From Spirochaetes bacterium GWE1_32_154 (GTDB lineage Bacteria > Spirochaetota > GWE2-31-10), in the NCBI GenBank assembly GCA_001829315.1, contig MIAY01000014.1:60801-124800 (forward strand): 64,000 bases of DNA. The letters run 5' to 3'. Position numbers and translations under genes: made by a program. This document shows positions 44,150 to 63,178 of this stretch, piece by piece (the first letter of the stretch is position 1; each line of letters begins with the position of its first letter). The notes under the pieces were generated by a model. That model ran no database searches. It was given only the letters and a program-made list of their open reading frames with translations, and was not told the origin of the DNA.

Positions 44150-44153
44150 ATTT

Positions 44154-44227: not shown

Positions 44228-44240
44228 TTCTCAATTTTAT

Positions 44241-44313: not shown

Positions 44314-44319
44314 CAACAC

Positions 44320-44393: not shown

Positions 44394-44400
44394 TGATTTT

Positions 44401-44473: not shown

Positions 44474-44485
44474 TGTTTATTTATT

Positions 44486-44566: not shown

Positions 44567-44580
44567 TTTTTTTTATTTAC

Positions 44581-44653
44581 GCGAGAATAGCTCAGTTGGT
44601 AGAGCGCAACCTTGCCAAGGTTGATGTCGAGAGTTCGAGTCTCTTTTCTCGCT
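44581..44653 (+). tRNA. tRNA-Gly (anticodon GCC), copy 1
   Basis: Acceptor GCGAGAA/TTCTCGC, anticodon stem CAACC/GGTTG with loop TTGCCAA, T-loop TTCGAGT. Confidence 0.85.
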
Positions 44654-44721
44654 CATTCCGGTACTGTCATTTTTGATATTTACCGGACAAACAGTCACTT
44701 TTTGTGATAAAACAAACATAC

Positions 44722-44794
44722 GCGAGAATAGCTCAGTTGGTAGAGCGCAACCTTGCCAAGGTTGATGTCGAGAGTTCGAGTCTCTTTTCTCGCT
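44722..44794 (+). tRNA. tRNA-Gly (anticodon GCC), copy 2 (identical to copy 1)
   Basis: Exact repeat of the 73-nt sequence at 44581-44653, separated by a 68-nt spacer. Confidence 0.85.
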
Positions 44795-46848: not shown

Positions 46849-49800
46849 CTAAAGCCCCTCTAAAGTCTCTTTAATAATCCTGCCTTTATCTTCGATAGTA
46901 AATTCATCATATTCACCAATCTTAATGAAAATTGAAGAGCTTTTACTTCCTTGTAGATAGACTCTTCCTTTCGATTGGGTCACCATAATCATTAATTTCC
47001 CGAAATTGATTTTATCTGATGAGTTAAATTTTATTTCAATACAATTTGATTTCTCAATAATCTCATTAACACCCATTTTCCTGCAAATTATTCGTATTTC
47101 ACCAATATATAATAATCGCTTCACATCTTCAGGAATCGGACCAAATCTATCAAGTAATAAACTCTTTATTCTATCTAAATCTTCCTCGTGAGTTATACCG
47201 GAAATTCTTTTATAGATTTCAATCTTTTCTTTAGGATCAGAAATATAACTATCCGGGATAAAACCATTATATTTAATATCAAGAAAAATATCATCATCCT
47301 CATCAACTAACTCATCAAACATTTCAGGGGTATCAGACGTCTTTTTTAACTCTTTTACAGCGTCAGTTAATAATTTACAGTATAAACTAAAACCGACGGC
47401 AAGAATATCACCATGCTGTTCAGGGCCTAACATATTACCGGCACCTCTGATTTCCATGTCTTTCATTGCAACTTTAAAACCACTACCCAACTCAGTATAC
47501 TCTGAAATTACCCGCAATTTCTTCATAGCATCCTCAGAGACAGCTACATTATCATCGTAGAACAAATATGCATACGCTTTAATATTTGACCTGCCAACAC
47601 GTCCTCTTAACTGATACAATTGAGCTAAACCAAACATATGCGCTCTATCAATAAATATAGTATTAACACGTGGAATATCAATTCCTGATTCAATAATTGT
47701 CGTTGTTAATAAAATGTCATATTTATAATTAATAAAATCATGAATAATATCTTCAAGTTCATCACCTTCCATTTGTCCGTGAGCGACAACAATTCGTGCT
47801 TGCGGAACAACGGTTTCAATATACTTTTTCATCTCGTTAATTGTCTTTACTCTATTATAGAGAAAAAACACCTGTCCTTCTCGCGCTAATTCATGTTCAA
47901 TTCCCATTTTAAGAATATCCTGATTAAACTCCATAACAAAAGTTTCAACAGGAAGACGTTCACGGGGAGGTGTATTTATTATTGACATATCACGAATTTT
48001 TGCTAAAGACATATGAAGTGTCCGTGGTATAGGCGTTGCAGTCATTGATAAACAATCAAGATTCTTTTTTACCTGTTTAATTTTTTCTTTATGCTTTACA
48101 CCAAAACGATGTTCTTCATCAATTATCAATAATCCAAGGTTTTTATAGACAACATCATCTGAAATCAACCGGTGCGTTCCTACGATTATATCAACTTCGC
48201 CATCCGCTAAGAGCTTAATAATTTTCTTTTGCTCAGCGGGTGTTCTAAAACGTGATAACATTTCCACTTTTACAGGGTAATCTGATAGTCGTAATGAAAT
48301 ATTTTCAAAATGCTGCTCGGTTAAAATTGTTGTCGGAACTAAAATTGCCACTTGCCGACCACTCATAACAGCTTTAAATGCAGCCCGAATTGCAACCTCA
48401 GTTTTTCCAAAACCGACATCCCCGCAAATTAACCGGTCCATCGGTCGATTGGATTCCATATCACGTTTAACTTCTTCTATAGTAAGTAATTGATCTTCAG
48501 TTTCATCATAAGGAAATTTAGCCTCAAACTCTTTCTGCCAGGGTGTATCGGGTAAAAATGAAATTCCTCTTTGATTTAATCTGAATGAATATAATTTCAC
48601 AAGTTCAGCAGCAAGTTTATTAACCGACTCTTTAACTTTTTCTTTAGCACGAGCCCACCCTTTTGAACCGATTTTATCAAGTTTCGGTTTTTCAAGATCA
48701 CCTGAACTATATTTTTGTACAAAATTCATTTGTTCAATAGGAATAAAAACTTTATCATCATCAGCATACAAAATAGCTATATAATCTTTTTCAACTTCCT
48801 TACTCTTTACTCTTTCAATACCAATAAATTTACCAATTCCATGATGAATATGAACAACATAATCACCCGGTTTTAAATCAATAAATGATTCGATACTTTC
48901 AGTTCTTCTCGTATAAAAATGTTTCGAAAGTTTATTTCGCTTACCAAATATTTCATAATCATTAAGAAACATTATTTTCATACTCTCAGAAATAAACCCG
49001 CTACTTAGTACAGAGGGAATAATTGAAACCCCTTCCGGCCTGAAATCATTCATATCATTTACCGGATTAAATTCATCAAATAAAACAGTAAGTCTTCCAG
49101 CTTGAGCTTCGGTAACTGCAAATATAACAATTCTGAATTTATTTTCAAGATATCGTCTTATGTCTTCTTTAAATAAGTCTAATGAACCTGCATAGGCATT
49201 AACACCTTTACAGTCAAACAAAACATTAAATGTTTCACCGGCTTTATTAAAATAATTTGCTTCTATAATTTTAAATGATTTACTATATAAATCCTGCAGG
49301 GAAAATAATAAAGCATCTGGATGAAATTTCGGTCTGTATTTATTATAACTTGCATTAAAATTCTGTGAAAATTCAATACAAATTGAATCACATCGCTTCT
49401 CAATCATATCACGATCATTAACTATAATAACAGAATCATTAACAAAATCAAGTATTGATGTTTTTTCATAGAATAAAGGAAGAAAAAAATGTTCACCATC
49501 AAATGTATTAAATTGTGATATTTTATGTTCAATATGATGTACATTTTCCTCATCACCACCAATTGTTTTCAAAACTGATAATGCATGTGATAATTCATCT
49601 TTCCCATAAAGAATCTCTTTAAAAGGTGGAATTTCTACACAATCCAATCTATCACAACTTTTTTGAGTTTCGGGATTAAAACTTTTTATTATTTCAATTT
49701 CATCATCAAAAAATTCTAACCTCACCGGGTTTCTTAATGTTGAAAAATAAATATCAACAATTTCACCACGTACGGCAAATTCACCGGGATATGTTACCTG

Positions 49801-50298
49801 TTTCACACGACTATACCCGGATTCAATTAAAAATGAAAAAAGTTGTTCAATTGGATATTTTAAACCAATTGATATTTTTAAAAAATATTTTTTAAGTACC
49901 GCTTTAGGAGTAAAAGTCAGAACTAAGGCATCAATCGTTGTTATAATTAACATCTTTTTTGAATTGATTAACCCGTTTACAACATCAAGCCTCATAGAAA
50001 CAATTTCTTCATTAACAACAGATAATTGATATGGTGTTAAACCCAGTGAAGGAAACCGGTATAAACTTTCGGTCTCCAAAGCTTCAAGATCATTATAAAC
50101 TGCTTCTAACTCATCATTATCTTTACATATAAAAAAAATAGAATTAGAATATTTTTTAATAAGATTATCAGATAATAAAGATAAAAAACTACCTGAACAT
50201 CCGCTTAATCGAATTGTTTTGTTTGAATCTATTGATTTATACAGGTTATCAAGAGATTCTGTATTAATTTTTTCATTTACCCAGTTTTTAAATCGCAT
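46849..50298 (-). CDS. mfd: Transcription-repair coupling factor Mfd
   Basis: 1149 aa; UvrB-homology N-terminal region, CarD-like RNAP-interacting domain, superfamily-2 helicase motifs (GDVGFGKTEV, DEEH), TRG motif region. Confidence 0.95.
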   Translation of the reverse strand: MRFKNWVNEKINTESLDNLYKSIDSNKTIRLSGCSGSFLSLLSDNLIKKYSNSIFFICKDNDELEAVYNDLEALETESLYRFPSLGLTPYQLSVVNEEIVSMRLDVVNGLINSKKMLIITTIDALVLTFTPKAVLKKYFLKISIGLKYPIEQLFSFLIESGYSRVKQVTYPGEFAVRGEIVDIYFSTLRNPVRLEFFDDEIEIIKSFNPETQKSCDRLDCVEIPPFKEILYGKDELSHALSVLKTIGGDEENVHHIEHKISQFNTFDGEHFFLPLFYEKTSILDFVNDSVIIVNDRDMIEKRCDSICIEFSQNFNASYNKYRPKFHPDALLFSLQDLYSKSFKIIEANYFNKAGETFNVLFDCKGVNAYAGSLDLFKEDIRRYLENKFRIVIFAVTEAQAGRLTVLFDEFNPVNDMNDFRPEGVSIIPSVLSSGFISESMKIMFLNDYEIFGKRNKLSKHFYTRRTESIESFIDLKPGDYVVHIHHGIGKFIGIERVKSKEVEKDYIAILYADDDKVFIPIEQMNFVQKYSSGDLEKPKLDKIGSKGWARAKEKVKESVNKLAAELVKLYSFRLNQRGISFLPDTPWQKEFEAKFPYDETEDQLLTIEEVKRDMESNRPMDRLICGDVGFGKTEVAIRAAFKAVMSGRQVAILVPTTILTEQHFENISLRLSDYPVKVEMLSRFRTPAEQKKIIKLLADGEVDIIVGTHRLISDDVVYKNLGLLIIDEEHRFGVKHKEKIKQVKKNLDCLSMTATPIPRTLHMSLAKIRDMSIINTPPRERLPVETFVMEFNQDILKMGIEHELAREGQVFFLYNRVKTINEMKKYIETVVPQARIVVAHGQMEGDELEDIIHDFINYKYDILLTTTIIESGIDIPRVNTIFIDRAHMFGLAQLYQLRGRVGRSNIKAYAYLFYDDNVAVSEDAMKKLRVISEYTELGSGFKVAMKDMEIRGAGNMLGPEQHGDILAVGFSLYCKLLTDAVKELKKTSDTPEMFDELVDEDDDIFLDIKYNGFIPDSYISDPKEKIEIYKRISGITHEEDLDRIKSLLLDRFGPIPEDVKRLLYIGEIRIICRKMGVNEIIEKSNCIEIKFNSSDKINFGKLMIMVTQSKGRVYLQGSKSSSIFIKIGEYDEFTIEDKGRIIKETLEGL

Positions 50299-50333: not shown

Positions 50334-51305
50334 TTGTTTATGAATAAGCTAACACTAATATTAACAATTATACTATTTTCTTTTTCACTTTGTGCCGTTG
50401 AAAATCATTCGACTGAAATTTCATATAATGATGTTGCAGTTATGATACGGTTTAGTGAACCGAAAATTTTTAAAATCAATGATTCAATTTATATCGACAT
50501 AGAAATTAAGAACAAATCAAATAAGCCTTCGGCAGTTCTTATTGCAGATGATAAAAGATATACATTCGATTTTGAATTAGTTTCACTTCAAAACAAACCG
50601 GTAGGATACAACAAAGATTATAGCAATTTTTTTAACAGGGTGCAACCGATTTTTAATTCAATGATTCGATTAAATAAAGATGAAGGTTTTACCTACAGAG
50701 TATTGTTAAATGATTATTATGATATTGATACAAGCGGTCAATATTATATTAGAGCAGTTTTTCATCCGGCATTAAAATTAAGTGAAAATAATGTAAATGT
50801 TATGAAATCAAATTATCTCACGATCAACGTCAGACCGGAATCAATCAATGACCGTTACATTGTTGAACAAAAAGAAGCTGAGATGGAACGAATGTTATTT
50901 GCAGAAAAAAAAGCACCTGATGAAGTAATAGAATATATGTTAAATGCAAGAATGAAATCAGAATGGGAAAAATACTTTCTCTATATTGATGTATCAAAAA
51001 TGATTTTAACAAACAGTAAATTTAAAGATAAATATAGAAAAGCTGATAGTGAAAGACAAAGTAAAATTATTGAAGAATATAAAGAATATTTAAAACAAAA
51101 TACAATTGACGAAATGAGTTATATACCAATTCTTTTTAATATTGTTAAAACAGAATATTCAACTGGTGAAGCGAAAGTTGAAGCAATTTTGAAGTTTAAA
51201 CAATATGACTTTATTGAAGACAAATATTATACTTACTTTTTGAATAAAAAAGATGATAAATGGTTTGTTACATCCTATACTGTATTAAATATCGGTGCAC
51301 GATAA
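50334..51305 (+). CDS. Hypothetical secreted protein
   Basis: 323 aa ORF with signal peptide; no recognisable domain. Confidence 0.45.
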   Translation: MFMNKLTLILTIILFSFSLCAVENHSTEISYNDVAVMIRFSEPKIFKINDSIYIDIEIKNKSNKPSAVLIADDKRYTFDFELVSLQNKPVGYNKDYSNFFNRVQPIFNSMIRLNKDEGFTYRVLLNDYYDIDTSGQYYIRAVFHPALKLSENNVNVMKSNYLTINVRPESINDRYIVEQKEAEMERMLFAEKKAPDEVIEYMLNARMKSEWEKYFLYIDVSKMILTNSKFKDKYRKADSERQSKIIEEYKEYLKQNTIDEMSYIPILFNIVKTEYSTGEAKVEAILKFKQYDFIEDKYYTYFLNKKDDKWFVTSYTVLNIGAR

Positions 51306-51310
51306 AAAAA

Positions 51311-51332
51311 AGGGTAGCTTTTCAGCTACCCT
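51311..51332. terminator. Bidirectional intrinsic terminator between convergent genes
   Basis: Hairpin AGGGTAGC-ttttc-AGCTACCCT flanked by A-run upstream and T-rich sequence downstream. Confidence 0.65.
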
Positions 51333-51348
51333 TTATCAATTAAATAAA

Positions 51349-51621
51349 TTAAACCATGCCATTACCGGAAAATGAACTCCCCGACTTTTCATTACTCATC
51401 TTGTCCATTAAAATCTGCTGTAATTCAACAGGATTAATGTAAGTCAACCAGCTTTTTGTTAAGGTTGTATAATACTTTACAAGATAGTCCTCATCATCAA
51501 CAAGATAATCCTTGATTCTGTTAGATGCACCGGGGTGTTTTTCATTAAAAATCTGAAATGCATGATCAAAGAAAATCTTTTCTATAGAGTTTACAAGTTT
51601 CATTCTTTCGCTGATTCCCAT
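51349..51621 (-). CDS. Hypothetical small protein (90 aa)
   Basis: ORF at the distal end of the minus-strand gene string; no recognisable domain. Confidence 0.4.
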   Translation of the reverse strand: MGISERMKLVNSIEKIFFDHAFQIFNEKHPGASNRIKDYLVDDEDYLVKYYTTLTKSWLTYINPVELQQILMDKMSNEKSGSSFSGNGMV

Positions 51622-51695
51622 AGCATCCTCCTGTGATTAAGTTATAATAAGTATAATGTAAATGATTAAAAAAATCAAAATAAAATGAATAAATA

Positions 51696-52652
51696 TTACA
51701 AATGAGCGTTTAACTTATTGTTTAAATAAATACAATCAGAAGATACACTAACCATATTAAATGTAATCATTAAAAAAATTGCCCGGTCAATAATCCTTTC
51801 TATATCTTCGAATGTATAACCTGTTGGAAGATGAGCTCTAATCGGGCGATTTAAATAATCTATAAAAGTTTTAATGGCACTATCTTTCTTTATTCCCTGA
51901 TTATTATGAAAAAAAAGCTCTAATACAGGTATTATATTATTAATAACCATGATTTCGCTGTCATTTCTAAATTTTTTAATTTTTTTTGTATACAATAACC
52001 AATCTTTATCTGTCGGATTGAAAACATCACCATGTCCCGGACAAATTACTTTAATTCCTGAATTTTTAATTAACTCATAACTTTTCTCTAACTCATCAAG
52101 GCTTTGATTTAAAGCATAATTATAATCAACTTGAGTAATTACACCCTTATAGATTAAATCACCGGTAAATAGAGTATTTGTTTCTTTTAATAACAATGAT
52201 ATTGAATCTTTAGAATGTCCCGGTGTATGATACAATACTGCAATATCATTGCCAAGATCAATTTCATAATAATCAGAAACTTTGATATCATGATTAAATG
52301 GTTTAAATGAGACTTCTAGTTCAGGGTATAAATTAAGGGCTGATTTTTTTAACACATAATCTTCTGATAAAGCAGAAATAACCACCTTGGCATTAACAAA
52401 AAAATCATTAATAAACGTTGCAGTTCCGCCAATATGATCAAAATGAGTATGTGTATTTACAATATATTTAACAGAATCAGGTACTAAACCAAAATTCTTT
52501 AATAAACTCAAATTTTTTTCATCGTCTAATGGATGACCAGTATCAATCAAAACACCATTTTCCCTCTTAATATAATAAATATGACTTCCCCGACTTCCCG
52601 GTAATCGATAGATATTATTGCCTAAATCATCCATTATTGTTTTCCTGTCCAT
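51696..52652 (-). CDS. MBL-fold metallo-hydrolase
   Basis: 318 aa; HTHFDHIGG metal-binding motif plus downstream HTPGHS and CPGHG motifs; start overlaps the kinase gene stop by 19 bp. Confidence 0.8.
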   Translation of the reverse strand: MDRKTIMDDLGNNIYRLPGSRGSHIYYIKRENGVLIDTGHPLDDEKNLSLLKNFGLVPDSVKYIVNTHTHFDHIGGTATFINDFFVNAKVVISALSEDYVLKKSALNLYPELEVSFKPFNHDIKVSDYYEIDLGNDIAVLYHTPGHSKDSISLLLKETNTLFTGDLIYKGVITQVDYNYALNQSLDELEKSYELIKNSGIKVICPGHGDVFNPTDKDWLLYTKKIKKFRNDSEIMVINNIIPVLELFFHNNQGIKKDSAIKTFIDYLNRPIRAHLPTGYTFEDIERIIDRAIFLMITFNMVSVSSDCIYLNNKLNAHL

Positions 52653-54067
52653 AATTTTTTTTCAATTATTGAATAAAACTCTTCATTTTTAAAAGGTTTC
52701 AAAATAAGTCCAACTCCATACTGCTTAATTAATGTATCAACAATATTTTCATTGGATGTTCCGGTTAACATTATCACGGGCATATCTTTTTTCTTTTCAA
52801 TAATCTTAAAATATAACTCATCTCCGCGTACCCCTGGCATCATTATATCAAGAAGTACCAGATCAATATTCTGATTATCCAGTATATCTAATGCCTCCGT
52901 ATGATCTTTCGCAGAAAATGTGGTATACCCTTTTACTTTTAATAACAATGAAGCTAAATTCCTGATAGATTGTTTATCATCAATAATAAGTATTGTAGCA
53001 TGAAGAGGTTCACTTTGTTCATCATTTACAGGTGTTTCAATATCATGAAGATCAACAAATTTATTTGGTATAATAAATGTGAATACACTTCCCTTTTTAT
53101 GCTTTGTTTCAACTTCGATTCTTCCACCCATATTTTTTATGATACCGTCAGAAACGGCAAGCCCTAAACCTGAATGATATTTCAAATTTTTTGTAGTGAA
53201 ATTTTTTTGAAAGATTCGGGATTTGAATTCATCAGGGATTCCAAGACCATCATCTTCAATTTTTATATAAATAGCATCTTTATCCATAGTAGTATATATC
53301 CCTATTCTACCGGTTGATAATTTACTTTCGATTGCTTCTTTTGCATTCATAATTGCATTTATTATTAATTGATTTACCTGATTTTCATCCCAGAAAATTA
53401 ATGGCTCACCGGGATATAATGAAAGATCTATTCTAATTTTAGCCGGGAAAACTTTTCTTAAAATATCAACATTTTGAGTAATAATTTTATTAATATTAAT
53501 ATATTTTTGTCTAAAATAATCAATGCCGGTATACGTCAATAACTGATTAGTTAAACTAGCTGCATGAACTGCTGCATTTTCTATGATATTAAAATATTTA
53601 AATAAATCACTCTCAGGATTTAAAGCTGTTTTTGCAAATGATGCAAAACCAAGTATAGCTGTTAATTGATTATTGTATTCAATCGAAATCAAATCAGTAA
53701 TATTTTTATAAATTTCAATTCTGTTTTTAAAATAAATCTTTGATAAAAAAGGATCCAGGGCTGTGCAATCAAATGCTGTAATAATAAATTCATTATCATC
53801 AAGCTTACTCACAATAAGTTTTACACATTTTCTTATAGTATCGTCGTTTGCTAATTCGAAAACTTCCTCATAGGTAACAGCTGATTCATACTCATTAATA
53901 ATTGAGTCTAAAAACAAATCTATTTTATTTGAATATAAATTAAAACCATCTTTTACAAATTGGTCATAACTAAAACCCATAATTACAAAAAAAAGATTAT
54001 TTGACTCAATAATCTTCTTTTCTTTATCAACGATTAATATGCCATAATTAAGTTTTTCAATATCCAT
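52634..54067 (-). CDS. Hybrid sensor histidine kinase/response regulator (PAS-like N-terminus, HisKA, HATPase, C-terminal receiver domain)
   Basis: 477 aa; HATPase G-box GLGLAVSDG, C-terminal REC domain (ILIIDD...DLVLLDIMMPG); no TM segments, so cytoplasmic. Confidence 0.75.
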   Translation of the reverse strand: MDIEKLNYGILIVDKEKKIIESNNLFFVIMGFSYDQFVKDGFNLYSNKIDLFLDSIINEYESAVTYEEVFELANDDTIRKCVKLIVSKLDDNEFIITAFDCTALDPFLSKIYFKNRIEIYKNITDLISIEYNNQLTAILGFASFAKTALNPESDLFKYFNIIENAAVHAASLTNQLLTYTGIDYFRQKYININKIITQNVDILRKVFPAKIRIDLSLYPGEPLIFWDENQVNQLIINAIMNAKEAIESKLSTGRIGIYTTMDKDAIYIKIEDDGLGIPDEFKSRIFQKNFTTKNLKYHSGLGLAVSDGIIKNMGGRIEVETKHKKGSVFTFIIPNKFVDLHDIETPVNDEQSEPLHATILIIDDKQSIRNLASLLLKVKGYTTFSAKDHTEALDILDNQNIDLVLLDIMMPGVRGDELYFKIIEKKKDMPVIMLTGTSNENIVDTLIKQYGVGLILKPFKNEEFYSIIEKKLWTGKQ

Positions 54068-54070
54068 TTG

Positions 54071-56515
54071 TTATTCCAAATAAAATAAATCTTTAAGTTC
54101 ATTATGCGTTTGCATAATCATCTTTATTTTAATTATAGTTATTTCTTTATTTAATAAAACACTTTTTACAATATTTATTAATTTTGGCCCCGGATTAATA
54201 CGATTTATTGTAAGAGAGATTGAATTATTGCTATCAACTTCAAAAAAAACAAATTGTTTCAAGTCGAAAGTGATTTCTTTCTCAATAAGTTTAAATTCAC
54301 TAGCTGTATTATACAAATTAATATAATTAATACTATCAGTAACATCCGCGTTATTACATTCTATCCGATACACTGTAGAATATAAATTATCATAAAGCGA
54401 TGATTTTTTGGTACTCTCGCATCTTCGAATTCTATTTATTACGATATCATTATTTGTAATACTATTAAATTTAGTTAATAATATTTCATCAGGGTAAAAT
54501 GTTGTCGTATACAATTCAAGCAATTCACACATCGATTCAAGACCAAGTGACATTGCACTGGAAAACTGAAATCGCGGATGAGGGTTAAACCCTTCGCTTA
54601 ACATAATATCAATACCTAAAATCCTCGATAAAGTCTCAAAATATCTCATTAAATCTTTATGTGAAATATATTTAGAAAGACCTTTCTTTGTGAATTCTAC
54701 AATATATCTGTATCTTCCTTTTTCAATAGATTTACATTCTTCAACAGAATCTGTTTTGAGAACATAGTTGTTTGTACTATTTTTTTTTAATACTTCACTG
54801 TTACATATTGAACAATCAGATTCGCATTCATCTTTACACAAAGAAGTGAGAGTGTGTTGTATTGATTTTTCTCTTTCATTAATTAAATATTCTTCATTTA
54901 ATAAAGAGTCAACCATATTCCATGGTTTTTTTGTATAATTCCCCGTTAAATACGTATCATAAATAATTGATTTTTTTTCAAATTCATTTAAATACAATGA
55001 AAAATTAAATTTATCATTCCAACCGTCAAAGCGTGCCCCTTGTAAAAAAGCAGCTTCAATACCATACCCGACACTCTCATCACCCCTGGCAATAAATCCT
55101 TCAATGTACGACATTTCAGGCGGATGATATTTAACATTTACCCTGGTTTTCTTATAATAATTTTTGATATACATTAACTTTTCTTTTGACTCGGGATAAT
55201 CTAATTGTTTAACAAGCTCATACGGTGTATGCGGCTTAGGAACAAATGTTGAGACATTAAGATTTATTGTCAGACCTTTAAATTTTTTTAGAACATTATC
55301 TACAAATGAGATAATATGAGCTACATCATCATTATCATCCGGTAATCCCACCATAAAATAAAATTTAACAAGACGCCAGCCCTTTTTAATAGCATATTCA
55401 ATAATTGAATATATTTTCTCAATATCAACCATTTTATTAATTGACAACTGACCTTCATTACTACCTGATTCAATGGCGAACGTTAAACCTGACTTTCTAA
55501 TTAATGATATTTTATCAAGAATATCAATATCAAATGATTCAACCTTTAAAGACGGTAATGAAACAGAAATACCTTTTTTTGAATATAAATCATTAAAGTA
55601 ATCACATAATTCGACAATATAAGTATAATCTCCACTTGATAAACTTGCAAATGTTACTTCATTGACACCGGTTAATCGTAAACCTTTTTCGATAGAATCC
55701 ATAATTGTCTGAGTATTTTTTTCACGATACGGTTTATATAAAACGCCGGCCTGACAAAATCTGCATTTATTAGGACAACCACGCATTATTTCTACAACAA
55801 GCTTATTCTGAACTATATCAATCGATGGAATAATCGAAATATCTACACCTTTATCATTTTCAAAGTTGGTATAAACCTGTCTTGTAACTTTATTTTCTGA
55901 ATATTCAGGACTCAAAACTCCTGGAATCTCTGATAAATGCTTAATTTTTTCACTTCTTGATCTATTTAATTTTTTTAATTGATCAATTTTAGAAATAATC
56001 TTCGCAATTACTTCCTCCCCTTCACCAATTACAATTAAATCAACAAATGGGAAATAAGGAACAGGATTTGAAACAGCCGGACCGCCAATTATTATAATCG
56101 GATCACTTTCGATTCTATTTTCACGTCGTAACGGGATTCCCCCCAAATCAATTATATTTAAAAAGTTTGAAAATAATAATTCGTATTGTATTGATATCCC
56201 AACAATATCAAATTGATGTAATGGGGTTTTTGTTTCTAATGAATACAGATCATACTTTTTGTCACGCAGATATTTCTCAAAATCAGGCCACACTGAAAAT
56301 ACACGTTCGCATGAAGCATATTCAATCTTATTAACAATATCATATAATATTTTAATTCCATTATTTGACATTCCAATTTCATAAATATCAGGATATGAAA
56401 TAACCATTCTTACATTTGTATTTGTAAAATCTTTTTTTGGGATGCCGGCTTCATTTCCAATATAGCGTGCCGGCTTCTCAACAAAAATTAAATCTTTCTC
56501 TATTTCGCTAAACAT
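54071..56515 (-). CDS. B12-binding-domain radical SAM protein fused to a C-terminal DUF2344-like (radical-SAM-linked) domain
   Basis: 814 aa; radical SAM CxxxCxxC (CPNKCRFCQAG) after an N-terminal Rossmann-like region; C-terminal about 220 aa resembles the separately encoded radical-SAM-linked protein family; 12 bp downstream of rodA. Confidence 0.65.
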   Translation of the reverse strand: MFSEIEKDLIFVEKPARYIGNEAGIPKKDFTNTNVRMVISYPDIYEIGMSNNGIKILYDIVNKIEYASCERVFSVWPDFEKYLRDKKYDLYSLETKTPLHQFDIVGISIQYELLFSNFLNIIDLGGIPLRRENRIESDPIIIIGGPAVSNPVPYFPFVDLIVIGEGEEVIAKIISKIDQLKKLNRSRSEKIKHLSEIPGVLSPEYSENKVTRQVYTNFENDKGVDISIIPSIDIVQNKLVVEIMRGCPNKCRFCQAGVLYKPYREKNTQTIMDSIEKGLRLTGVNEVTFASLSSGDYTYIVELCDYFNDLYSKKGISVSLPSLKVESFDIDILDKISLIRKSGLTFAIESGSNEGQLSINKMVDIEKIYSIIEYAIKKGWRLVKFYFMVGLPDDNDDVAHIISFVDNVLKKFKGLTINLNVSTFVPKPHTPYELVKQLDYPESKEKLMYIKNYYKKTRVNVKYHPPEMSYIEGFIARGDESVGYGIEAAFLQGARFDGWNDKFNFSLYLNEFEKKSIIYDTYLTGNYTKKPWNMVDSLLNEEYLINEREKSIQHTLTSLCKDECESDCSICNSEVLKKNSTNNYVLKTDSVEECKSIEKGRYRYIVEFTKKGLSKYISHKDLMRYFETLSRILGIDIMLSEGFNPHPRFQFSSAMSLGLESMCELLELYTTTFYPDEILLTKFNSITNNDIVINRIRRCESTKKSSLYDNLYSTVYRIECNNADVTDSINYINLYNTASEFKLIEKEITFDLKQFVFFEVDSNNSISLTINRINPGPKLINIVKSVLLNKEITIIKIKMIMQTHNELKDLFYLE

Positions 56516-56527
56516 TCTAAATCCTAT

Positions 56528-57856
56528 TTAATATTGAAATCTATTTATATGAAAATTTAATAATAATCCCGTAGTTAAAAAACATGATACGATAAATGTT
56601 CCACCATAGGAAATAAATGGTAAAGGAATACCGGTAACAGGCATTATACCAATACACATTCCGATATTTTGAAGAATATGAAATAATAAATAGGATAATA
56701 ATCCGGCAGTTACACATGAAGACCACAAATCCTTACAGTTGATCGCAATATAAAAACCTCGGAAGAAAAATAAACCATACAAAAAAACGATTAAAACGGT
56801 ACCAAGAAAACCAAGTTCTTCTGCAATAACTGGAAAAATGAAATCAGTTGATTGTTCCGGTACAAATAAATTTTGAATCATTTCACCTTTTTGCCAGCCT
56901 TTTCCCGAAAAACCACCATTACCAATGGCCGTCATTGCTTGAATAATATTATATCCACTATTCATAGGATCAGAATATGGATTAAAAAAAATCAATAATC
57001 TGTCTTTCTGATACCCCTTCAAAACAAACTTATTAACCGGATAAGATAATAGTAATCCAAAAAAAGCAATTGAAGCAAAAAAAACAAACCAGTAAAATAA
57101 TAATTTAAATTTATTTGAAATTCCTTTAATAATATCTAAATATGCCAGAATAGATATTGCGATTGTAATAAAAAGAAAAATAAAAACAAGAATAACATAT
57201 TTCATATTAGTCATAAGATAAATAATTTCATTTTCATTTTTAAAAAATAAACTATTAACTGTTGTGATAATTGGTATAAAACCAACGGTAAAAAAAAATA
57301 ATACGGTATACAATAAATATCTTTTTCTAATACCTGCAACAAATGATATAGCAAGAATTATTGGGATAAAAACTAAAGATGACCCTAAATCAGGCTGAAG
57401 CATTATTGCACCTACCGGAATAAATGCAATAAGAGAGCCTTTTAAATAAACAGTCAATGATTTAATATTAACATAATTTGAAGAATAAAATTTTGATAAA
57501 TAAAATGTCACTGCTATTTTCATAAATTCAGCAAACTGAATAGATACGCCAAATAAACTAAATCGCCGTTGACCTTTTACACTTGGAAAAAATAACGTTA
57601 AAAACAAACCAATAAAACAAATAATATAAAAAATCTCAACTGAACTTTTCATTGTCCGCATATTCATAAACAAAACTGAAATTAAAACTGCCAAACCTGC
57701 CAATGCAAAAATTATCTGTTTTAAATACTCTATTTTTAAATGCTCATTTTTATTTATATTCGCTGAATATATAAAAGCTATTCCAACAACACTTAGTATA
57801 ATAGAAGTTAATAATAATGTATAATCAAAATTCACAACTATTTTTCTTAAATTCAT
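56528..57856 (-). CDS. rodA: Rod shape-determining SEDS protein RodA
   Basis: 442 aa; FtsW/RodA/SpoVE family polytopic membrane protein; follows mrdA. Confidence 0.85.
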   Translation of the reverse strand: MNLRKIVVNFDYTLLLTSIILSVVGIAFIYSANINKNEHLKIEYLKQIIFALAGLAVLISVLFMNMRTMKSSVEIFYIICFIGLFLTLFFPSVKGQRRFSLFGVSIQFAEFMKIAVTFYLSKFYSSNYVNIKSLTVYLKGSLIAFIPVGAIMLQPDLGSSLVFIPIILAISFVAGIRKRYLLYTVLFFFTVGFIPIITTVNSLFFKNENEIIYLMTNMKYVILVFIFLFITIAISILAYLDIIKGISNKFKLLFYWFVFFASIAFFGLLLSYPVNKFVLKGYQKDRLLIFFNPYSDPMNSGYNIIQAMTAIGNGGFSGKGWQKGEMIQNLFVPEQSTDFIFPVIAEELGFLGTVLIVFLYGLFFFRGFYIAINCKDLWSSCVTAGLLSYLLFHILQNIGMCIGIMPVTGIPLPFISYGGTFIVSCFLTTGLLLNFHINRFQY

Positions 57857-57954: not shown

Positions 57955-59820
57955 TTAATTATAACTATCTTTTACTGGATACCACATTCTTTTTGCGGTT
58001 GCAGGAAAATCTTCTTTATGTATCCATGAACTGAAAACCATTGCAGCAACATTACCGGCATATTTTAAAGGTTGTCCATTTTCAAATTCAATTAAAACAG
58101 CAACTACTACTTGTTCCTCAATAGGAATATCAAGTGGTCCAAACCCGACAAATAAAGAATGAGTTTGTTTTTTTTGTCCGACACCAACTTCAGATGTACC
58201 TGTTTTCCCTGCAAATGGTCTTTTTAAATTATAAAATGCCTTATTTGCAGTACCCTGACTTATAACCATACCCATAGCCTGATTTACTACAAAAAAAGTA
58301 TCCTGACTAATATTAACTTTATTTAGAATCTCAGGTTTAATTTCTTTTTTAACATCACCAGTATTTGGATCAATAATTTTCTTTAAAACATGTGGTTTAT
58401 ATGAAACACCCCGGTTAGCAATTACAGATACATAATCAGCTAATTGTAAAACCGTTGTTGTAACATCACCTTGTCCAATAACTGTATTTAATGTATTTCC
58501 AAGATACCATGTTTCACCTTTTTCTTTTAATGCAGTTACAGAAGGTATAAAACCTCTTCGTTCAAAAGGAATATCAACTCCGGTAGAAGCACCTAAACCG
58601 AATAATGATGCATATTCAGTAATCTTTTCTATACCAAAAAGTAAACTTGTATTATAATAATATGTATCACATGAATTTGCCAGTGCTTCAAAAAAATTCT
58701 CATTACCATGATAAGCCCAGCAACCAAAAGTTTGGCTGTTCAATCTAAAACTCTTAGAACAAAAATATGATTTCGTTAATGGAACAACATTTTCTTCTGC
58801 AATAATAAAAGAACTAATCATTTTAAAAGTTGAACCAGGCGGGTACTCAGACTGAATTGTTCTATTAATTAAGGGAGTTCCTTTAGTATCTAATGACATT
58901 TCAATTCGTTTAGTATAATTCTCAGGATTTTGCAGTATGTAAATGTTCGGGTCAAAATTCGGGTAACTAACCATTGCAAGTATTTCTCCGCTTGATGGTT
59001 TCATTACTACTATACCGCCTGCTCTATCAGCTAATATAGCTTCAACATTTTTTTGAAATTGTAAATCAATAGACAATAATAAATCATCTCCCGGTAAAGC
59101 AGCTTCTTTTCTAACAAAATTATTTCTGCTGACATTCATTTTTGCATCAATTTCATAAGCTACAAAACCATCCTTACCACGAAGTTCTTTCTCATAACTA
59201 TTTTCAATGCCGATTTTGCCTATCCAATCCTGTTTTTTATACCCCGAAGCTTGTAATTTTGAAAATTCATTAAAATTAATAGGTCCAATATAGCCAATAA
59301 CGTGACTTGCTAATTGTTGATTCGGATAATCCCGAATAAGAAGCTCTTCCGGCTCAACACCTGGCATTGTATCAATATTTTCAAGGATTTTTATATAATT
59401 AGTAAATGAAACATTTTCGGCGATTGTTAATCGTTCTTTTTTTATTTTTGCAGTTTGAACCATTTTCTCAATATCAGGGTAATCAATATCAGTCATTTCA
59501 GATAAATACAATAATGTTTTTTGCCGTTTAATTTGATCTTTACTTAAATTATTCGGATCAATAATAATATTATAGATTTTTTTATTTGAAGCTAAAATAG
59601 AACCATCATCAGAAAATATCCGTCCCCGAATTGGAGGAATTCGTATTACAACTTCTCTATTTCTTTGAGATCTTTCACTAAAATTGGTATTCTTAACAAT
59701 TTGTAAATATCCTGCACGTAAAACAATAATAACAAGTATAAATGTAGTAAATAGTGCTAAAATAATTAATCTGAATTGAATATCTTTCTCAAAAGAATCA
59801 TTATTACTTGAATTATACAT
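57955..59820 (-). CDS. mrdA: Penicillin-binding protein 2 (peptidoglycan D,D-transpeptidase)
   Basis: 621 aa; N-terminal TM anchor, transpeptidase motifs STFK and KTGT. Confidence 0.9.
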   Translation of the reverse strand: MYNSSNNDSFEKDIQFRLIILALFTTFILVIIVLRAGYLQIVKNTNFSERSQRNREVVIRIPPIRGRIFSDDGSILASNKKIYNIIIDPNNLSKDQIKRQKTLLYLSEMTDIDYPDIEKMVQTAKIKKERLTIAENVSFTNYIKILENIDTMPGVEPEELLIRDYPNQQLASHVIGYIGPINFNEFSKLQASGYKKQDWIGKIGIENSYEKELRGKDGFVAYEIDAKMNVSRNNFVRKEAALPGDDLLLSIDLQFQKNVEAILADRAGGIVVMKPSSGEILAMVSYPNFDPNIYILQNPENYTKRIEMSLDTKGTPLINRTIQSEYPPGSTFKMISSFIIAEENVVPLTKSYFCSKSFRLNSQTFGCWAYHGNENFFEALANSCDTYYYNTSLLFGIEKITEYASLFGLGASTGVDIPFERRGFIPSVTALKEKGETWYLGNTLNTVIGQGDVTTTVLQLADYVSVIANRGVSYKPHVLKKIIDPNTGDVKKEIKPEILNKVNISQDTFFVVNQAMGMVISQGTANKAFYNLKRPFAGKTGTSEVGVGQKKQTHSLFVGFGPLDIPIEEQVVVAVLIEFENGQPLKYAGNVAAMVFSSWIHKEDFPATAKRMWYPVKDSYN

Positions 59821-60322
59821 ATCTTTTTAATTTTTCCATAAATGAATATATATTTTTAAAAATGAAAAATACAGGTATAGAAATTAATATCGTATATATA
59901 AATTCACCCATAAAAATAGTATTAAAATAAACTGCCAATGAATTTGTAGTAAAAAAAATATAAGCTAAAATCATATAAATAAAAGCTTTTATAAGATAAA
60001 AAATAAATATGACTATCGGTGATAATATTACAGACTCAATATGAAATAATTTATGCGGTAAAATCGCAATATATCCGATTAATGTATACATTAATGCATT
60101 TACTCCCAATAGATTTGAACCTGACATAATATCTATTGTTAAACCACCAAAAAAACCAAAAATAATTGAATGATATTTCCCTTCAAATAAACCAATAAAT
60201 GTAACAAAAATTAACAATAAATCAGGTCTTGCACCATACAAACTAATATCCACATATCTTGTATATAATAAACCAACAATAGAAAGAATTAATAGTGCAT
60301 CTATAATTAATTTTCTTATCAA
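59813..60322 (-). CDS. mreD: Rod shape-determining protein MreD
   Basis: 169 aa polytopic membrane protein between mreC and mrdA. Confidence 0.75.
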   Translation of the reverse strand: MIRKLIIDALLILSIVGLLYTRYVDISLYGARPDLLLIFVTFIGLFEGKYHSIIFGFFGGLTIDIMSGSNLLGVNALMYTLIGYIAILPHKLFHIESVILSPIVIFIFYLIKAFIYMILAYIFFTTNSLAVYFNTIFMGEFIYTILISIPVFFIFKNIYSFMEKLKRYV

Positions 60323-61203
60323 AATGGATTCTCCAACAAATTAAAATCATCTTTCTTAAAATTTACAATTAAAACAAGTACAAATTCTATTTTATTGTAG
60401 TTTTCTGTAAGTTTAATAACAGCTTCATTATATATTTCATATTTTTTTGAAGGTAATACCTCAGTCATCACCCCGATTTCAATTCCTTTAGGATAAAAAA
60501 TTGAATCACCGGAAGTATAAACAAGAGATGATTTTGAACCTGGAAAATCATAGTCTTTAGGTAAATAGAGTAATTTAGCATAATCTAAAGATGAATTATC
60601 GCCTTGAACAACACAATGAGTATTTTCATTACCAACAACTACTCCGACATTCATTTCAGGATTATTTAATGTAATTACCTTGGAAGAAAATGGTGTTACA
60701 AGGCTTACTCTCCCAATCAGTGCTTTTCTTCCTTTTTTATAACTGATAACAGGCATATTCTCTATAATTCCTGCATTAGACCCTTTATCAATTATTAAAT
60801 AATCAAAAAAATTATTTGGATCCCTACCGACTATTTGTGCTGCAACAGTTTTATAATCAAGATTATCTTTTAAATCCAGAGTGTTTCTTAAATCAGAATT
60901 TTCTTTAATAATTACATTAAAATCAACCATCATTTTCCGATATAAATCTAATTCATCCCGAAGTCCTTTAACTTCATCCTCAATTTGTTTTATTTGAGAA
61001 ACAGCGTTTACCATATCATTAAATTTATCACCTAATGAATTTATCATAAATTGGAAAGGATATATTATTGACAAACCAATTTTTGAAAATGAAATCAAAC
61101 CTCTTGTATCGCTAAAAATAATAAGAATAAATGAAATAATTACAAAAAAAAGTGTAAGAAGACCTCTTCTTGACCTATAAATTAAACCTTTTATTGCTGA
61201 CAT
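60319..61203 (-). CDS. mreC: Rod shape-determining protein MreC
   Basis: 294 aa; N-terminal TM, coiled-coil, C-terminal beta domain; follows mreB. Confidence 0.8.
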   Translation of the reverse strand: MSAIKGLIYRSRRGLLTLFFVIISFILIIFSDTRGLISFSKIGLSIIYPFQFMINSLGDKFNDMVNAVSQIKQIEDEVKGLRDELDLYRKMMVDFNVIIKENSDLRNTLDLKDNLDYKTVAAQIVGRDPNNFFDYLIIDKGSNAGIIENMPVISYKKGRKALIGRVSLVTPFSSKVITLNNPEMNVGVVVGNENTHCVVQGDNSSLDYAKLLYLPKDYDFPGSKSSLVYTSGDSIFYPKGIEIGVMTEVLPSKKYEIYNEAVIKLTENYNKIEFVLVLIVNFKKDDFNLLENPF

Positions 61204-61204
61204 A

Positions 61205-62215
61205 TTACTTTTTTATCGACTCCAGAAATTTTCCGGCTCCAAGAGCAACGCATAATAAAGGATTCTCTGCAATAATTACCGGTACACCTGTTTGTTGAGA
61301 TAATAATTTTGGTAAACCACTCAATAATGCACCACCGCCGGTTAAAACGATTCCTCGTTCAACTATATCAGCAGCTAATTCCGGAGGTGTCTGATCCAGA
61401 GTCTTTTTGACTTCTTCAATAATTATATTAATTGGCTCCTGTAATGCTTCTCTAATCTCAACTGAATCTACTTCCTGAATTTTTGGCAATCCACTAATTG
61501 CATCCCGTCCTCTAATTTCTATCTTTTTCACTTCACCTTCAGGGTATGCATTACCAATTTTTATTTTTACATCTTCAGCTGTTGACTCTCCAATTATAAG
61601 ATTGTGTACTAATTTTACATGTTTTAAAATTGCTTCATCAAATTCATCACCGCCAATTCTTATGGCATTTGATATTACCATACCACCTAACGAAATAACA
61701 GATATTTCTGTTGTTCCACCACCAATATCGCATATCATATTTCCGGCAGGTTCATGAATAGGAATATTTGCTCCGATTGCAGCTGCCATTGACTCTTCGA
61801 TTAAATAAATTTCTTTAGCACCTGCTTGTTCAGCAGATTCTTTCACAGCACGCCTTTCAACCTCTGTTATACAAGAAGGAATACCTATGACAATTCTTGG
61901 CTTTATACTGAAAAGACTTTTTGGAGAAACCTTTTCTATAAAATATTTTATCATTTTTTCTGTTGTTTCAAAGTCAGCAATAACACCATCCCTTAATGGT
62001 CTGATTGCAATAATATCTCTATGAGTTTTTCCCAGCATTTTTTTAGCTTCCTGACCAACAGCAATTACTTTTTTAGTACCCCGTTCTACAGCAACAACAG
62101 AAGGCTCAGACAAAACGATCCCTCTTCCTCTTACATGAATCAAAGTATTTGCAGTTCCAAGATCTATACCAAGATCTAAAGAAAACATGTCTGAAAATTT
62201 CCCCATATGTATCAC
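61205..62215 (-). CDS. mreB: Rod shape-determining actin homologue MreB
   Basis: 336 aa; actin-fold phosphate-binding motifs ([15 protein letters not shown]); true start likely a few codons downstream of the annotated Met. Confidence 0.95.
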
Positions 62216-62221: not shown

Positions 62222-63178
62222 TTATAATCTTCTATATGCTTTTATATGACTGGGATTAATACTCAGTGTCTTACGCCACTCAGATCGTGCCCTTATATTG
62301 TCTTTATAATAAATAAAATAAATCTCGCCTCTCAAAAAAAAAGCATCTGCATTGTTTTCATTTAATTCAGTAACTGAATTTAAAGTGAATAATGCTTTTT
62401 CATATTCTTTTTTATTCAATTGTATTTCTGCAAGTGTTATTAAAGCTGTTTCCTTTATTTTATCACTGCTTTTATTTTCCAGTACTTTATTTATATATTT
62501 TTCAGCGTTATTAAAATCACTGCTTCTATAGTAATTTAGGGCAACAGCTATTGAAACAATATCAGAATACTCAATATCTAAAGATCTTTTAAAAACCTTA
62601 TTCGATTCTTCATAATTACTTATATTTGAATAAACCAACCCCAAAACATACAATAAATCAACCCGTTCATTGCCATAGGATAATGATTTTTTTAAATAAT
62701 CAATACTCTGATTGTAATAAGAACGACCATAAAAATAATATATTTTACCGATACAAAAATATACATCAGGTGCAATATTATCAGCCACACCAACAGCTAA
62801 AGATCTTCGTAAATCAATAATCGATAATGAGAAATAAAGTGATCTTTTATTAACATCTTTCTCAGCTTCTCCTAATAAATAATAAGAAAAACCACGGTAA
62901 ATTAAATATTCGACTCTTAAGGAATTATTCTTAAGCTCATTATCCATCTTATCAATGAGTTCCAAGTAATTTTTACTATCATATAACTTTCTATATGATT
63001 CCCGTAACTCAAAACTTATTTTCTGATTTCTTTTATAATTTTTATAGAAATAACCAATAGAAGTTATAAAAAAAACAATAAATAGAAATAAGAATAAAAA
63101 CAGTAAAACTTTATTTACTACATGATTATTATTTCTTCTAACCGTTTTTCCTTGAAAAGATGTATATTTATAACTCAA
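62222..63178 (-). CDS. TPR-repeat membrane-anchored protein (first gene of the mre operon)
   Basis: 318 aa; N-terminal TM helix, TPR-like repeats; 6 bp upstream of mreB. Confidence 0.55.
   Translation of the reverse strand: MSYKYTSFQGKTVRRNNNHVVNKVLLFLFLFLFIVFFITSIGYFYKNYKRNQKISFELRESYRKLYDSKNYLELIDKMDNELKNNSLRVEYLIYRGFSYYLLGEAEKDVNKRSLYFSLSIIDLRRSLAVGVADNIAPDVYFCIGKIYYFYGRSYYNQSIDYLKKSLSYGNERVDLLYVLGLVYSNISNYEESNKVFKRSLDIEYSDIVSIAVALNYYRSSDFNNAEKYINKVLENKSSDKIKETALITLAEIQLNKKEYEKALFTLNSVTELNENNADAFFLRGEIYFIYYKDNIRARSEWRKTLSINPSHIKAYRRL

What the first reader, a model, noticed from the sequence alone, without database searches (positions are those of the whole stretch)
51349..56515. Cell-shape operon continues into a radical-SAM fusion protein, a cytoplasmic hybrid histidine kinase, an MBL-fold hydrolase and a small protein
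On the minus strand, TPR protein, mreB, mreC, mreD, mrdA, rodA, the 814-aa radical SAM fusion, the hybrid kinase, the MBL hydrolase and a 90-aa ORF lie with tiny gaps or overlaps (12 bp, 3 bp, a 19-bp overlap), implying co-transcription. The radical SAM protein fuses two domains that are separate adjacent genes of unknown function in other bacteria, and its placement with a soluble kinase/receiver and a metallo-hydrolase directly behind rodA suggests an uncharacterised enzymatic/signalling module coupled to rod morphogenesis.
Basis: partly seen in the sequence, partly recalled or inferred. Interest (0 to 1): 0.6.

Follow-up and report, generated by a model that had tools for sequence, protein, structure and literature searches.

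The report
Cell-shape operon with orphan radical-SAM enzyme
A spirochaete's rod-shape (MreB/RodA) operon runs straight into a widespread but uncharacterised radical-SAM enzyme whose tail looks like a catalytically dead RNA-modifying enzyme, so it more likely works on RNA or the ribosome than on the cell wall.

Summary
On the minus strand TPR-mreB-mreC-mreD-mrdA-rodA is followed, with gaps of 12, 3, -19 (or -1) and 74 bp, by an 814-aa radical-SAM fusion, a 477-aa kinase/receiver protein, an MBL hydrolase and a 90-aa ORF. No terminator-like hairpin lies between genes until a strong one at 51309-51334.

rodA->rSAM adjacency is conserved across Spirochaetota and in Acidobacteriota/Aminicenantes. 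However, in 47 of 87 loci the same family sits directly upstream of RNase E/G, in some followed by rplU-rpmA-obg. One acidobacterial locus has mreB..pbp2-rodA-rSAM-RNase G in a single array.

The "hybrid kinase" lacks its phospho-acceptor His (Ile129; Leu in six of seven orthologues). It stays next to the rSAM gene in several divergent spirochaete lineages, in one of them away from rodA. The MBL and the 90-aa protein are lineage-specific additions.

This is a new member of known but uncharacterised families, of moderate interest.

The parts
62222..63178 (-). TPR protein, first gene of the co-directional array
   Evidence: ORF. TPR Pfam hits on the orthologue in L001. Found directly upstream of mreB (position -6) in 15 loci in the ORF clustering.
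61205..62215 (-). mreB
   Evidence: ORF. 100% identical over the aligned region in L001, where the product hits MreB_Mbl.
60319..61203 (-). mreC
   Evidence: ORF. The orthologue in L001 hits PF04085.
59813..60322 (-). mreD
   Evidence: ORF. The orthologue in L001 hits PF04093.
57955..59820 (-). mrdA (PBP2 transpeptidase)
   Evidence: ORF. The orthologue hits PBP_dimer and Transpeptidase.
56528..57856 (-). rodA (SEDS glycosyltransferase)
   Evidence: FTSW_RODA_SPOVE 258 bits. NF037961 RodA_shape 190.6 bits against a cut-off of 150. TIGR02210 314.7 bits, just under its cut-off of 336.7.
54071..56515 (-). 814-aa radical-SAM fusion protein (TIGR03960 + TIGR03936)
   Evidence: NCBIfam and Pfam hits above their cut-offs. 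AlphaFold model pLDDT 89.8, pTM 0.90.
55901..56515 (-). N-terminal Rossmann-like, cobalamin-binding-type domain (about residues 1-205; Radical_SAM_N2)
   Evidence: PF19864 at 174.5 bits. PF02310 B12-binding only 21.8 bits against a cut-off of 32.1. Foldseek best matches are class-B rSAM methylases MgmA, TsrM, CysS and TokK.
55136..55810 (-). Radical-SAM core with CxxxCxxC (C247, C251, C254)
   Evidence: PF04055 at 62 bits. The three Cys are invariant in 38 homologues.
54803..54838 (-). Cx3Cx3Cx2C motif in the linker (C560, C564, C568, C571); possible auxiliary Fe-S or Zn site
   Evidence: C560 and C568 are invariant and C571 is at least 90% conserved. Metal binding is inferred, not tested.
54074..54724 (-). 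C-terminal DUF2344/TIGR03936 domain: TruA-like pseudouridine-synthase fold without the catalytic Asp
52634..54067 (-). 477-aa PAS-like + DHp + HATPase_c + receiver protein lacking the phospho-acceptor His (pseudo-histidine kinase)
   Evidence: Pfam. Ile129 aligns with the phospho-His of ThkA, CckA and KinB. Six of seven orthologues (P0122-P0127) have Leu at this position and one (P0128) has His. The N, G1 and G2 boxes and the receiver Asp407 and Lys457 are conserved.
53681..53683 (-). Codon of Ile129, the position of the missing phospho-acceptor His
   Evidence: Alignments to 3a0r, 5idj and 3d36.
51696..52652 (-). MBL-fold hydrolase with a roughly 100-aa C-terminal extension (alternative start at Met7, 52634)
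   Evidence: Lactamase_B 96 bits. The HTHFDH motif is visible in the sequence. No specific subfamily reaches its cut-off. Full-length homologues other than its own genome's copy (P0241): only P0242 (89%) and P0243 (31%).
51349..51621 (-). 90-aa protein of a very small family
   Evidence: AGGAGG ribosome-binding site. 97% identical in L001. Three homologues (56, 39 and 35% identity) among 1.84 billion representatives.
51309..51334 (-). Intrinsic-terminator-like hairpin ending the array, shared with the convergent + strand gene
   Evidence: 11-bp stem with 5 GC pairs, followed by a T-run.

Best explanation
The region is the 3' end of a single co-directional unit of about 12 kb: TPR-mreBCD-mrdA-rodA-rSAM-pseudoHK-MBL-90aa. 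It is most likely one transcript that ends at the hairpin at 51309-51334.

The 814-aa protein belongs to the widespread, uncharacterised TIGR03960/TIGR03936 family. Its build is a cobalamin-binding-type N-domain, a radical-SAM core, a 4-Cys motif and a TruA-like domain that has lost the catalytic Asp.

I infer that the TruA-like domain binds RNA and presents a nucleotide, or a ribosome-bound residue, to the radical-SAM active site. The enzyme would then be a ribosome/RNA-modifying enzyme, probably carrying out a methylation or another radical C-H functionalisation.

I also infer that its position behind rodA is part of an old neighbourhood, mre/mrd - rSAM - RNase E/G - rplU - rpmA - obg. That neighbourhood would co-express envelope elongation with ribosome maturation, rather than mark a step in peptidoglycan synthesis.

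In this spirochaete clade the enzyme has acquired a tightly coupled partner. This is a soluble kinase-like protein without the phospho-acceptor His but with an intact ATP-binding domain and receiver. It probably acts as a regulatory pseudokinase or phospho-receiver.

The MBL hydrolase and the small protein are later, lineage-specific additions of unknown substrate.

Shown here: gene order, spacing, domain content, folds, loss of the His, and synteny. Inferred: co-transcription, RNA as the substrate, cobalamin use, and the regulatory role of the pseudokinase.
For: - Anatomy and spacing. Only one strong terminator, and it lies at the end of the array.
- Family membership is above the curated cut-offs.
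- Full-length model: the best matches are class-B cobalamin rSAM methylases (MgmA E 1e-14, TsrM, CysS, TokK), then MiaB. The tail matches TruA, Pus1 and PUS3. The nearest solved sequences are MgmA, MiaB and RimO.
- The C-domain is basic on median (pI 8.5), against 5.9 for the rest of the protein.
- RNase E/G lies immediately downstream on the same strand in 47 of 87 loci. L21, L27 and Obg follow in a subset of them.
- L070 carries mreB..pbp2-rodA-rSAM-RNase E/G in one array. E. coli has mreBCD-yhdE-rng.
- The rSAM-pseudoHK pair is conserved, with gaps of 3, -4, 12 and 9 bp, in four lineages. One of these (L090) is detached from rodA.
- His replaced by Ile or Leu.
Against: - No experimental or transcript data exist for this locus.
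- RNA binding is inferred from fold and gene neighbourhood only. The window's own C-domain is not basic (pI 7.0).
- The B12-binding Pfam match is below threshold, and cobalamin use cannot be tested here.
- The closest structural neighbour, MgmA, modifies a protein, not RNA.
- rodA->rSAM coupling is very tight (0-12 bp in several lineages) and persists across Spirochaetota. This would also fit a real functional tie to the elongasome.
- Most spirochaete loci show no RNase E/G next to the gene.
Confidence: 0.5

Rival explanations
1. The rSAM fusion, the kinase/receiver protein, the MBL and the small protein form an enzymatic and signalling module that acts on rod morphogenesis. For example, it might modify a wall precursor, a lipid carrier or an elongasome protein.
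For: - Tight, translationally coupled rodA->rSAM junction.
- The linkage is conserved in Spirochaetota and Acidobacteriota/Aminicenantes.
- In L003 a Ser/Thr kinase and a metallophosphoesterase-like gene follow the rSAM gene. From memory, this recalls the kinase/phosphatase genes next to rodA-pbpA in actinobacteria.
- The closest solved structural relative, MgmA, modifies a protein.
Against: - The C-terminal domain has a fold known here only from RNA-modifying enzymes.
- Most family members examined lie next to RNase E/G and ribosomal genes, not mre genes.
- The rSAM-pseudoHK pair persists away from rodA in L090.
- The MBL and the 90-aa gene are not conserved with rodA.
Confidence: 0.2
2. Pure operon hitch-hiking. 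The genes after rodA are functionally unrelated to one another and to the elongasome. They share a transcript only because of genome compaction.
For: - Genes downstream of the rSAM gene differ between lineages: aroE, pabB-like, a DHOD electron-transfer subunit, or a convergent MazG.
- The genome is compact, with many short gaps and overlaps.
Against: - rodA->rSAM and rSAM->pseudoHK adjacencies survive at 37-54% protein identity, and the second survives relocation.
- HK-like->small protein adjacency recurs in L095, and MBL->small protein adjacency in L093.
Confidence: 0.15
3. The rSAM fusion modifies a ribosomal protein rather than RNA. This would parallel RimO acting on S12 or MgmA acting on its protein substrate. 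The TruA-like domain would only dock the enzyme on rRNA.
For: RimO and MgmA are among the nearest solved relatives. L21 and L27 genes lie in the conserved neighbourhood.
Against: There is no direct evidence. The data here cannot separate this from RNA modification.
Confidence: 0.15

Closest known systems
TIGR03960 (B12-binding radical SAM) / TIGR03936 = DUF2344 (radical SAM-associated protein)
   Same: Both models score above their curated cut-offs. The CxxxCxxC motif is present. Fused and split forms both exist.
   Different: Nothing distinguishes the window protein from the family. The family itself has no assigned function, and I found no functional literature on it.
E. coli mreB-mreC-mreD-yhdE-rng cluster
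   Same: Cell-shape genes are followed on the same strand by an RNA-maturation gene. L070 shows mreB..pbp2-rodA-rSAM-RNase E/G.
   Different: E. coli has no TIGR03960 gene at this locus, and the window has no RNase E/G after the rSAM gene.
MiaB/RimO methylthiotransferases (N-domain + radical-SAM core + RNA-binding TRAM domain)
   Same: Three-part build with a C-terminal nucleic-acid-binding module. Detectable sequence and structure similarity of the core.
   Different: No TRAM domain. The N-domain lacks the three-Cys auxiliary cluster motif, with only C69 near-invariant. The tail has a TruA fold.
Class-B cobalamin-dependent radical-SAM methylases (MgmA, TsrM, CysS, TokK)
   Same: Best structural matches over the N-domain plus core. 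The class is defined by an N-terminal cobalamin domain plus a radical-SAM motif (PMC9692996).
   Different: The Pfam B12-binding match is below threshold. None of the best-matching class-B structures carries a pseudouridine-synthase-like domain. Cobalamin binding is untested.
TruA-family pseudouridine synthases
   Different: No invariant Asp. No significant sequence or profile similarity to E. coli TruA. It is fused to a radical-SAM enzyme.
DivL-type pseudo-histidine kinases
   Same: A histidine-kinase fold with the phospho-acceptor His replaced. DivL was repurposed as a sensor rather than a phosphodonor (PMC4211667).
   Different: Here the replacement is Ile or Leu, whereas in DivL it is Tyr (from memory; not read here). 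The protein is soluble, carries its own receiver domain, and is linked to a radical-SAM gene in spirochaetes. Its function is untested.

Membership tests
TIGR03960 B12-binding radical SAM family | Score above the NCBIfam curated cut-off | tested here: met
   543.4 bits against a cut-off of 462.3.
Radical SAM superfamily | CxxxCxxC cluster motif in the core | tested here: met
   C247, C251 and C254 are invariant in 38 homologues. PF04055 at 62 bits.
TIGR03936 / DUF2344 radical SAM-associated protein | Score above the curated cut-off, and fused or adjacent to TIGR03960 | tested here: met
   97 bits against 71.9. PF10105 at 90.6 bits against 23.8. Fused here, split in L055, L075 and L087.
Class-B (cobalamin-dependent) radical SAM enzymes | N-terminal cobalamin-binding domain | tested here: inconclusive
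   The fold matches MgmA, TsrM, CysS and TokK, but Pfam B12-binding scores 21.8 bits against a cut-off of 32.1.
Class-B (cobalamin-dependent) radical SAM enzymes | Cobalamin actually bound and used | not testable with these tools
   Needs purified protein.
Pseudouridine synthase (TruA family) | Catalytic-domain fold | tested here: met
Pseudouridine synthase (TruA family) | Strictly conserved catalytic Asp | tested here: not met
   The only invariant residues in the domain are K, H, G, P, G, E and Y, with no invariant Asp. hhalign to E. coli TruA is not significant.
MiaB/RimO methylthiotransferases | Three-Cys auxiliary cluster in the N-domain, and a C-terminal TRAM domain | tested here: not met
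   Only C69 is near-invariant in the N-domain. No TRAM hit. TIGR00089 scores 22.7 bits against 251.
Histidine kinase (HisKA/CckA-like) | Phospho-acceptor His in the H-box | tested here: not met
   Ile129 aligns to the His of 3a0r, 5idj and 3d36. Leu in six of seven orthologues.
Histidine kinase (HisKA/CckA-like) | ATP-binding domain with N, G1 and G2 boxes | tested here: met
   HATPase_c at 68 bits. N237, N241, D272, G274, G276, G300 and G302 are invariant.
Response-regulator receiver | Acidic pocket, phospho-Asp and conserved Lys | tested here: met
   Response_reg at 86.6 bits. D363, D364, D407 and K457 are invariant.
Metallo-beta-lactamase fold hydrolases | HxHxDH metal-binding motif and a Pfam match | tested here: met
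   HTHFDH in the sequence. Lactamase_B at 96 bits. No specific subfamily reaches its cut-off.
Single operon (co-transcription) | One transcript from the TPR gene or mreB to the 90-aa ORF | not testable with these tools
   Only spacing and the absence of terminator-like hairpins support it. Transcript data are needed.

The most novel reading that the evidence does not exclude
The TIGR03960/TIGR03936 family may be a cobalamin-type radical-SAM enzyme that modifies rRNA or tRNA, using a catalytically dead TruA-like domain to capture the nucleotide. None of the class-B enzymes matched here acts on RNA, so this would be an unusual substrate for the class. It would be expressed from the end of the elongasome operon so that ribosome maturation tracks envelope growth. 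In this spirochaete clade it would be controlled by a dedicated His-less kinase/receiver pseudokinase.
Probability: 0.25. Interest if true: 0.75.

Novelty: new member of a known kind. Interest (0 to 1): 0.4.

Why it matters
TIGR03960/TIGR03936 is a very large family: at least 7,997 clusters reached E<=1e-10 among the 8,000 candidates scored. It spans many phyla and sits in a conserved neighbourhood between the cell-elongation genes and the RNase G/L21/L27/Obg ribosome-maturation genes. I found no functional literature on it.

The fold evidence makes a concrete test possible. One can compare rRNA/tRNA nucleosides and ribosomal-protein masses in a deletion mutant of any tractable carrier.

The window itself adds a lineage-specific twist, a conserved His-less kinase/receiver partner. 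That partner could show how such an enzyme is regulated.

If the enzyme instead acts on the elongasome, it would be a new radical-SAM step in rod morphogenesis.

Tried and rejected
- **Literature.** Searches for TIGR03960, TIGR03936, DUF2344, COG5011, PF10105, PF19864, and combinations of radical SAM with rodA/mreB/rplU/obg found no functional work.
- **Sequence link from DUF2344 to solved structures.** A profile of the domain finds nothing in the PDB. hhalign to E. coli TruA is not significant. Only the fold comparison works.
- **Promoters.** The scan is uninformative: 100 sites against 95.7 expected. A TTGATT-17-TATACT match before the 90-aa ORF is therefore not evidence for a promoter.
- **Rfam.** No riboswitch or other RNA family in the region, only eight tRNAs at 44.1-44.8 kb.
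- **rodA upstream of the split Clostridia genes.** L087 has a his operon there instead. My recollection that Clostridioides and Streptomyces place this gene pair between rodA and rne/rng was not verified.
- **MBL homologue fragment upstream of the 90-aa homologue in L093.** BLASTP missed it. An ungapped, end-anchored comparison scored 66, matched by 0 of 100,000 shuffles.
- **L095.** The gene upstream of the small-protein homologue proved to be the kinase-like protein, not an MBL.
- **AFDB fold search.** Not available.
- **Anti-Pycsar Apyc1 similarity of the MBL.** This appears only as a weak precomputed hit and did not appear in my Pfam scan at E<=0.01. I rejected it as an assignment.


Full report
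**Source and observation**

The window is 100% identical, at the protein level, to hypothetical proteins A2015_06685 and A2015_06690 of the metagenome-assembled 'Spirochaetes bacterium GWF1_31_7'. Its G+C content is about 28%.

On the minus strand the ORFs are:

| Coordinates | Gene or product |
|---|---|
| 62222-63178 | TPR protein |
| 61205-62215 | mreB |
| 60319-61203 | mreC |
| 59813-60322 | mreD |
| 57955-59820 | mrdA |
| 56528-57856 | rodA |
| 54071-56515 | 814-aa protein |
| 52634-54067 | 477-aa protein |
| 51696-52652 | 318-aa protein |
| 51349-51621 | 90-aa protein |

- 12 bp between rodA and the 814-aa gene, with an AGGA 8 nt before the ATG.
- 3 bp to the 477-aa gene.
- A 19-bp overlap with the longest MBL ORF. 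If Met7 is the start, as called in the closest relative, the overlap is 1 nt.
- 74 bp to the 90-aa ORF, which has an AGGAGG site.

The only strong terminator-like hairpin on this strand is at 51334..51309, directly after the 90-aa ORF. It is shared with a convergent + strand gene. The promoter scan has no discriminating power in this AT-rich DNA, with 100 sites found against 95.7 expected. Co-transcription is a reasonable inference from spacing, but it is not shown.

**What the proteins are**

- rodA, mrdA and mreBCD are ordinary.
- The 814-aa protein passes the curated cut-offs of TIGR03960 (543 bits against 462) and TIGR03936/DUF2344 (97 bits against 72). It also has Radical_SAM_N2 and Radical_SAM domains.
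- Thirty-eight homologues share an invariant CxxxCxxC (C247, C251, C254) and a Cx3Cx3Cx2C motif at 560-571, in the linker before the C-terminal domain.
- The fused form is common. All of the 120 best database hits except one (P0048) have both parts. Split adjacent genes occur in Clostridia loci.

**Fold evidence**

The domain has no invariant Asp. The conserved residues are K610, H619, G642, P645, G658, E664 and Y716, within motifs GFNPxP(K/R) and LSLGIES. A profile comparison with E. coli TruA is not significant. The domain therefore has the fold but fails the defining catalytic feature of pseudouridine synthases. I read it as a binding module.

The full-length model (pLDDT 89.8, pTM 0.90) matches cobalamin-type class-B radical-SAM methylases over the N-domain and core: MgmA at E 1e-14, then TsrM, CysS and TokK. 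AprD4 and MiaB follow, and TruA/Pus1/PUS3 match the tail. By sequence, the nearest solved cores are MgmA, MiaB and RimO.

The Pfam B12-binding match is sub-threshold, so cobalamin use stays open. The three-part build (N-domain, radical-SAM core, C-terminal nucleic-acid-binding-type module) parallels MiaB/RimO. However, the methylthiotransferase hallmarks, an N-terminal three-Cys cluster and a TRAM domain, are absent.

The C-domain is basic on median (pI 8.5 against 5.9 for the rest), although it is not basic in the window's own protein (7.0).

**Synteny**

Relatives with 94, 54, 50, 43 and 40% identity all keep TPR-mreBCD-mrdA-rodA-rSAM on one strand. The rodA->rSAM gaps are 0 to 107 bp.

I scanned one genome per species and combined the 80 loci it returned with the seven fetched earlier by look-up. 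Among these:
- rodA lies at position -1 in 20 loci, and PBP2 at -2 in 23 (plus one at -3, 24 in all). These are mostly Spirochaetota, but also Aminicenantes (L038, L077) and Acidobacteriota (L070).
- The commoner neighbour is RNase E/G, directly downstream on the same strand in 47 of 87 loci (Pfam RNase_E_G at 370 bits).
- In some of these loci L21, L27 and Obg follow. In Desulfobacterales, rnpA-yidC-jag follow instead.
- L070 joins the two contexts in one array: mreB..pbp2-rodA-rSAM-RNase E/G.
- E. coli, which lacks this family at the locus, has mreB-mreC-mreD-yhdE-rng.

I infer an old neighbourhood in which this gene lies between the elongation genes and the ribosome-maturation genes. In most spirochaete loci examined the gene after the rSAM gene is unrelated or convergent, so the rSAM gene appears to end the mre unit.

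**The kinase-like protein**

It has a PAS-like N-terminus, a weak HisKA match, HATPase_c and a receiver domain. HMMER alignments to ThkA (3a0r), CckA (5idj) and KinB (3d36) all put Ile129 opposite the phospho-acceptor His.

Six of the seven orthologues (37-44% identity) have Leu at this position (ISLEYNN) and one has His. More distant hybrid kinases have the canonical AHDFNN. The ATP-binding boxes and the receiver residues Asp407 and Lys457 are conserved. The protein therefore fails the defining test of a histidine kinase. The closest known analogy is a pseudokinase such as DivL (PMC4211667). Its function here is inferred.

Its gene follows the rSAM gene with gaps of 3, -4, 12 and 9 bp in the window, L088, L089 and L090. 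In L090 the pair is no longer next to rodA. The partner of this protein is therefore the rSAM enzyme, not RodA.

**MBL hydrolase and 90-aa protein**

The MBL has the HxHxDH motif and an extension of about 100 aa. No subfamily reaches its cut-off. Apart from its own genome's copy, only P0242 (89%) and P0243 (31%) cover its full length. The 31% relative lies after two other B12-type radical-SAM genes, in a lipid or polyketide-like cluster.

The 90-aa protein has three homologues among 1.84 billion representatives:
- In L093 the homologue follows the C-terminus of an MBL-extension homologue.
- In L095 the homologue follows a 53%-identical kinase-like gene and precedes a beta-branching (HMG-CoA synthase/ECH) cassette.
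- In L094 the homologue lies on a 523-bp contig with no neighbouring genes.

L088, L089 and L090 carry neither the MBL nor the small protein. These two genes are lineage-specific additions with loose ties to the kinase-like gene. Their substrates are unknown.

**Verdict**

The sequence observation is right. It overreaches in treating all four genes as one morphogenesis module and in calling the kinase a functional hybrid histidine kinase.

The best-supported mechanism (confidence about 0.5) is a ribosome/RNA-directed radical-SAM enzyme, co-expressed with the elongasome and paired with a pseudokinase in this clade. A direct wall or elongasome role (about 0.2) is not excluded.

I found no functional literature on the family. 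The locus is a new member of known but uncharacterised families. Interest is moderate and comes mainly from the testable RNA hypothesis and the His-less partner.

Noticed in passing
window 44075-44794 (+): Cluster of eight tRNA genes in about 720 bp (Rfam).
   Followed up: no
window 63401-63973 (-): RluA-type pseudouridine synthase ORF directly upstream of the TPR-mreB array. L001, L002 and L006 show the same order, so another RNA-modification gene flanks the shape operon.
   Followed up: partly
window 50334-51305 (+): 323-aa protein with a signal-peptide-like N-terminus and no Pfam or NCBIfam match. It converges on the same hairpin as the operon and is 97% conserved in L001.
   Followed up: no
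L003/L004 12493-15537: In a relative with 54% rSAM identity, the rSAM gene is followed by a metallophosphoesterase-like protein (364 aa) and a Ser/Thr kinase (643 aa). This is a non-homologous 'metallo-hydrolase + kinase' pair at the place where the window has a pseudokinase and an MBL.
   Followed up: partly
L095 1-9339; L092 4793-8981: Homologues of the 90-aa protein (L095) and of the MBL (L092) lie next to lipid or polyketide-type genes: KS, methyltransferase, KR, HMG-CoA synthase, two ECH, ACP, KAS III, a thioesterase and other B12-type radical-SAM genes.
   Followed up: partly
window 53675-53689 (-), residues 127-131 of the kinase-like protein: Tyr131 (LEYNN, or IEYNN in the window) replaces the Phe of the canonical HDFNN H-box in all eight members of this group. 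This includes the one that keeps the His.
   Followed up: no
window 46849-50298 (-): mfd (transcription-repair coupling factor; TIGR00580 at 1092 bits) follows the convergent gene downstream of the operon.
   Followed up: no
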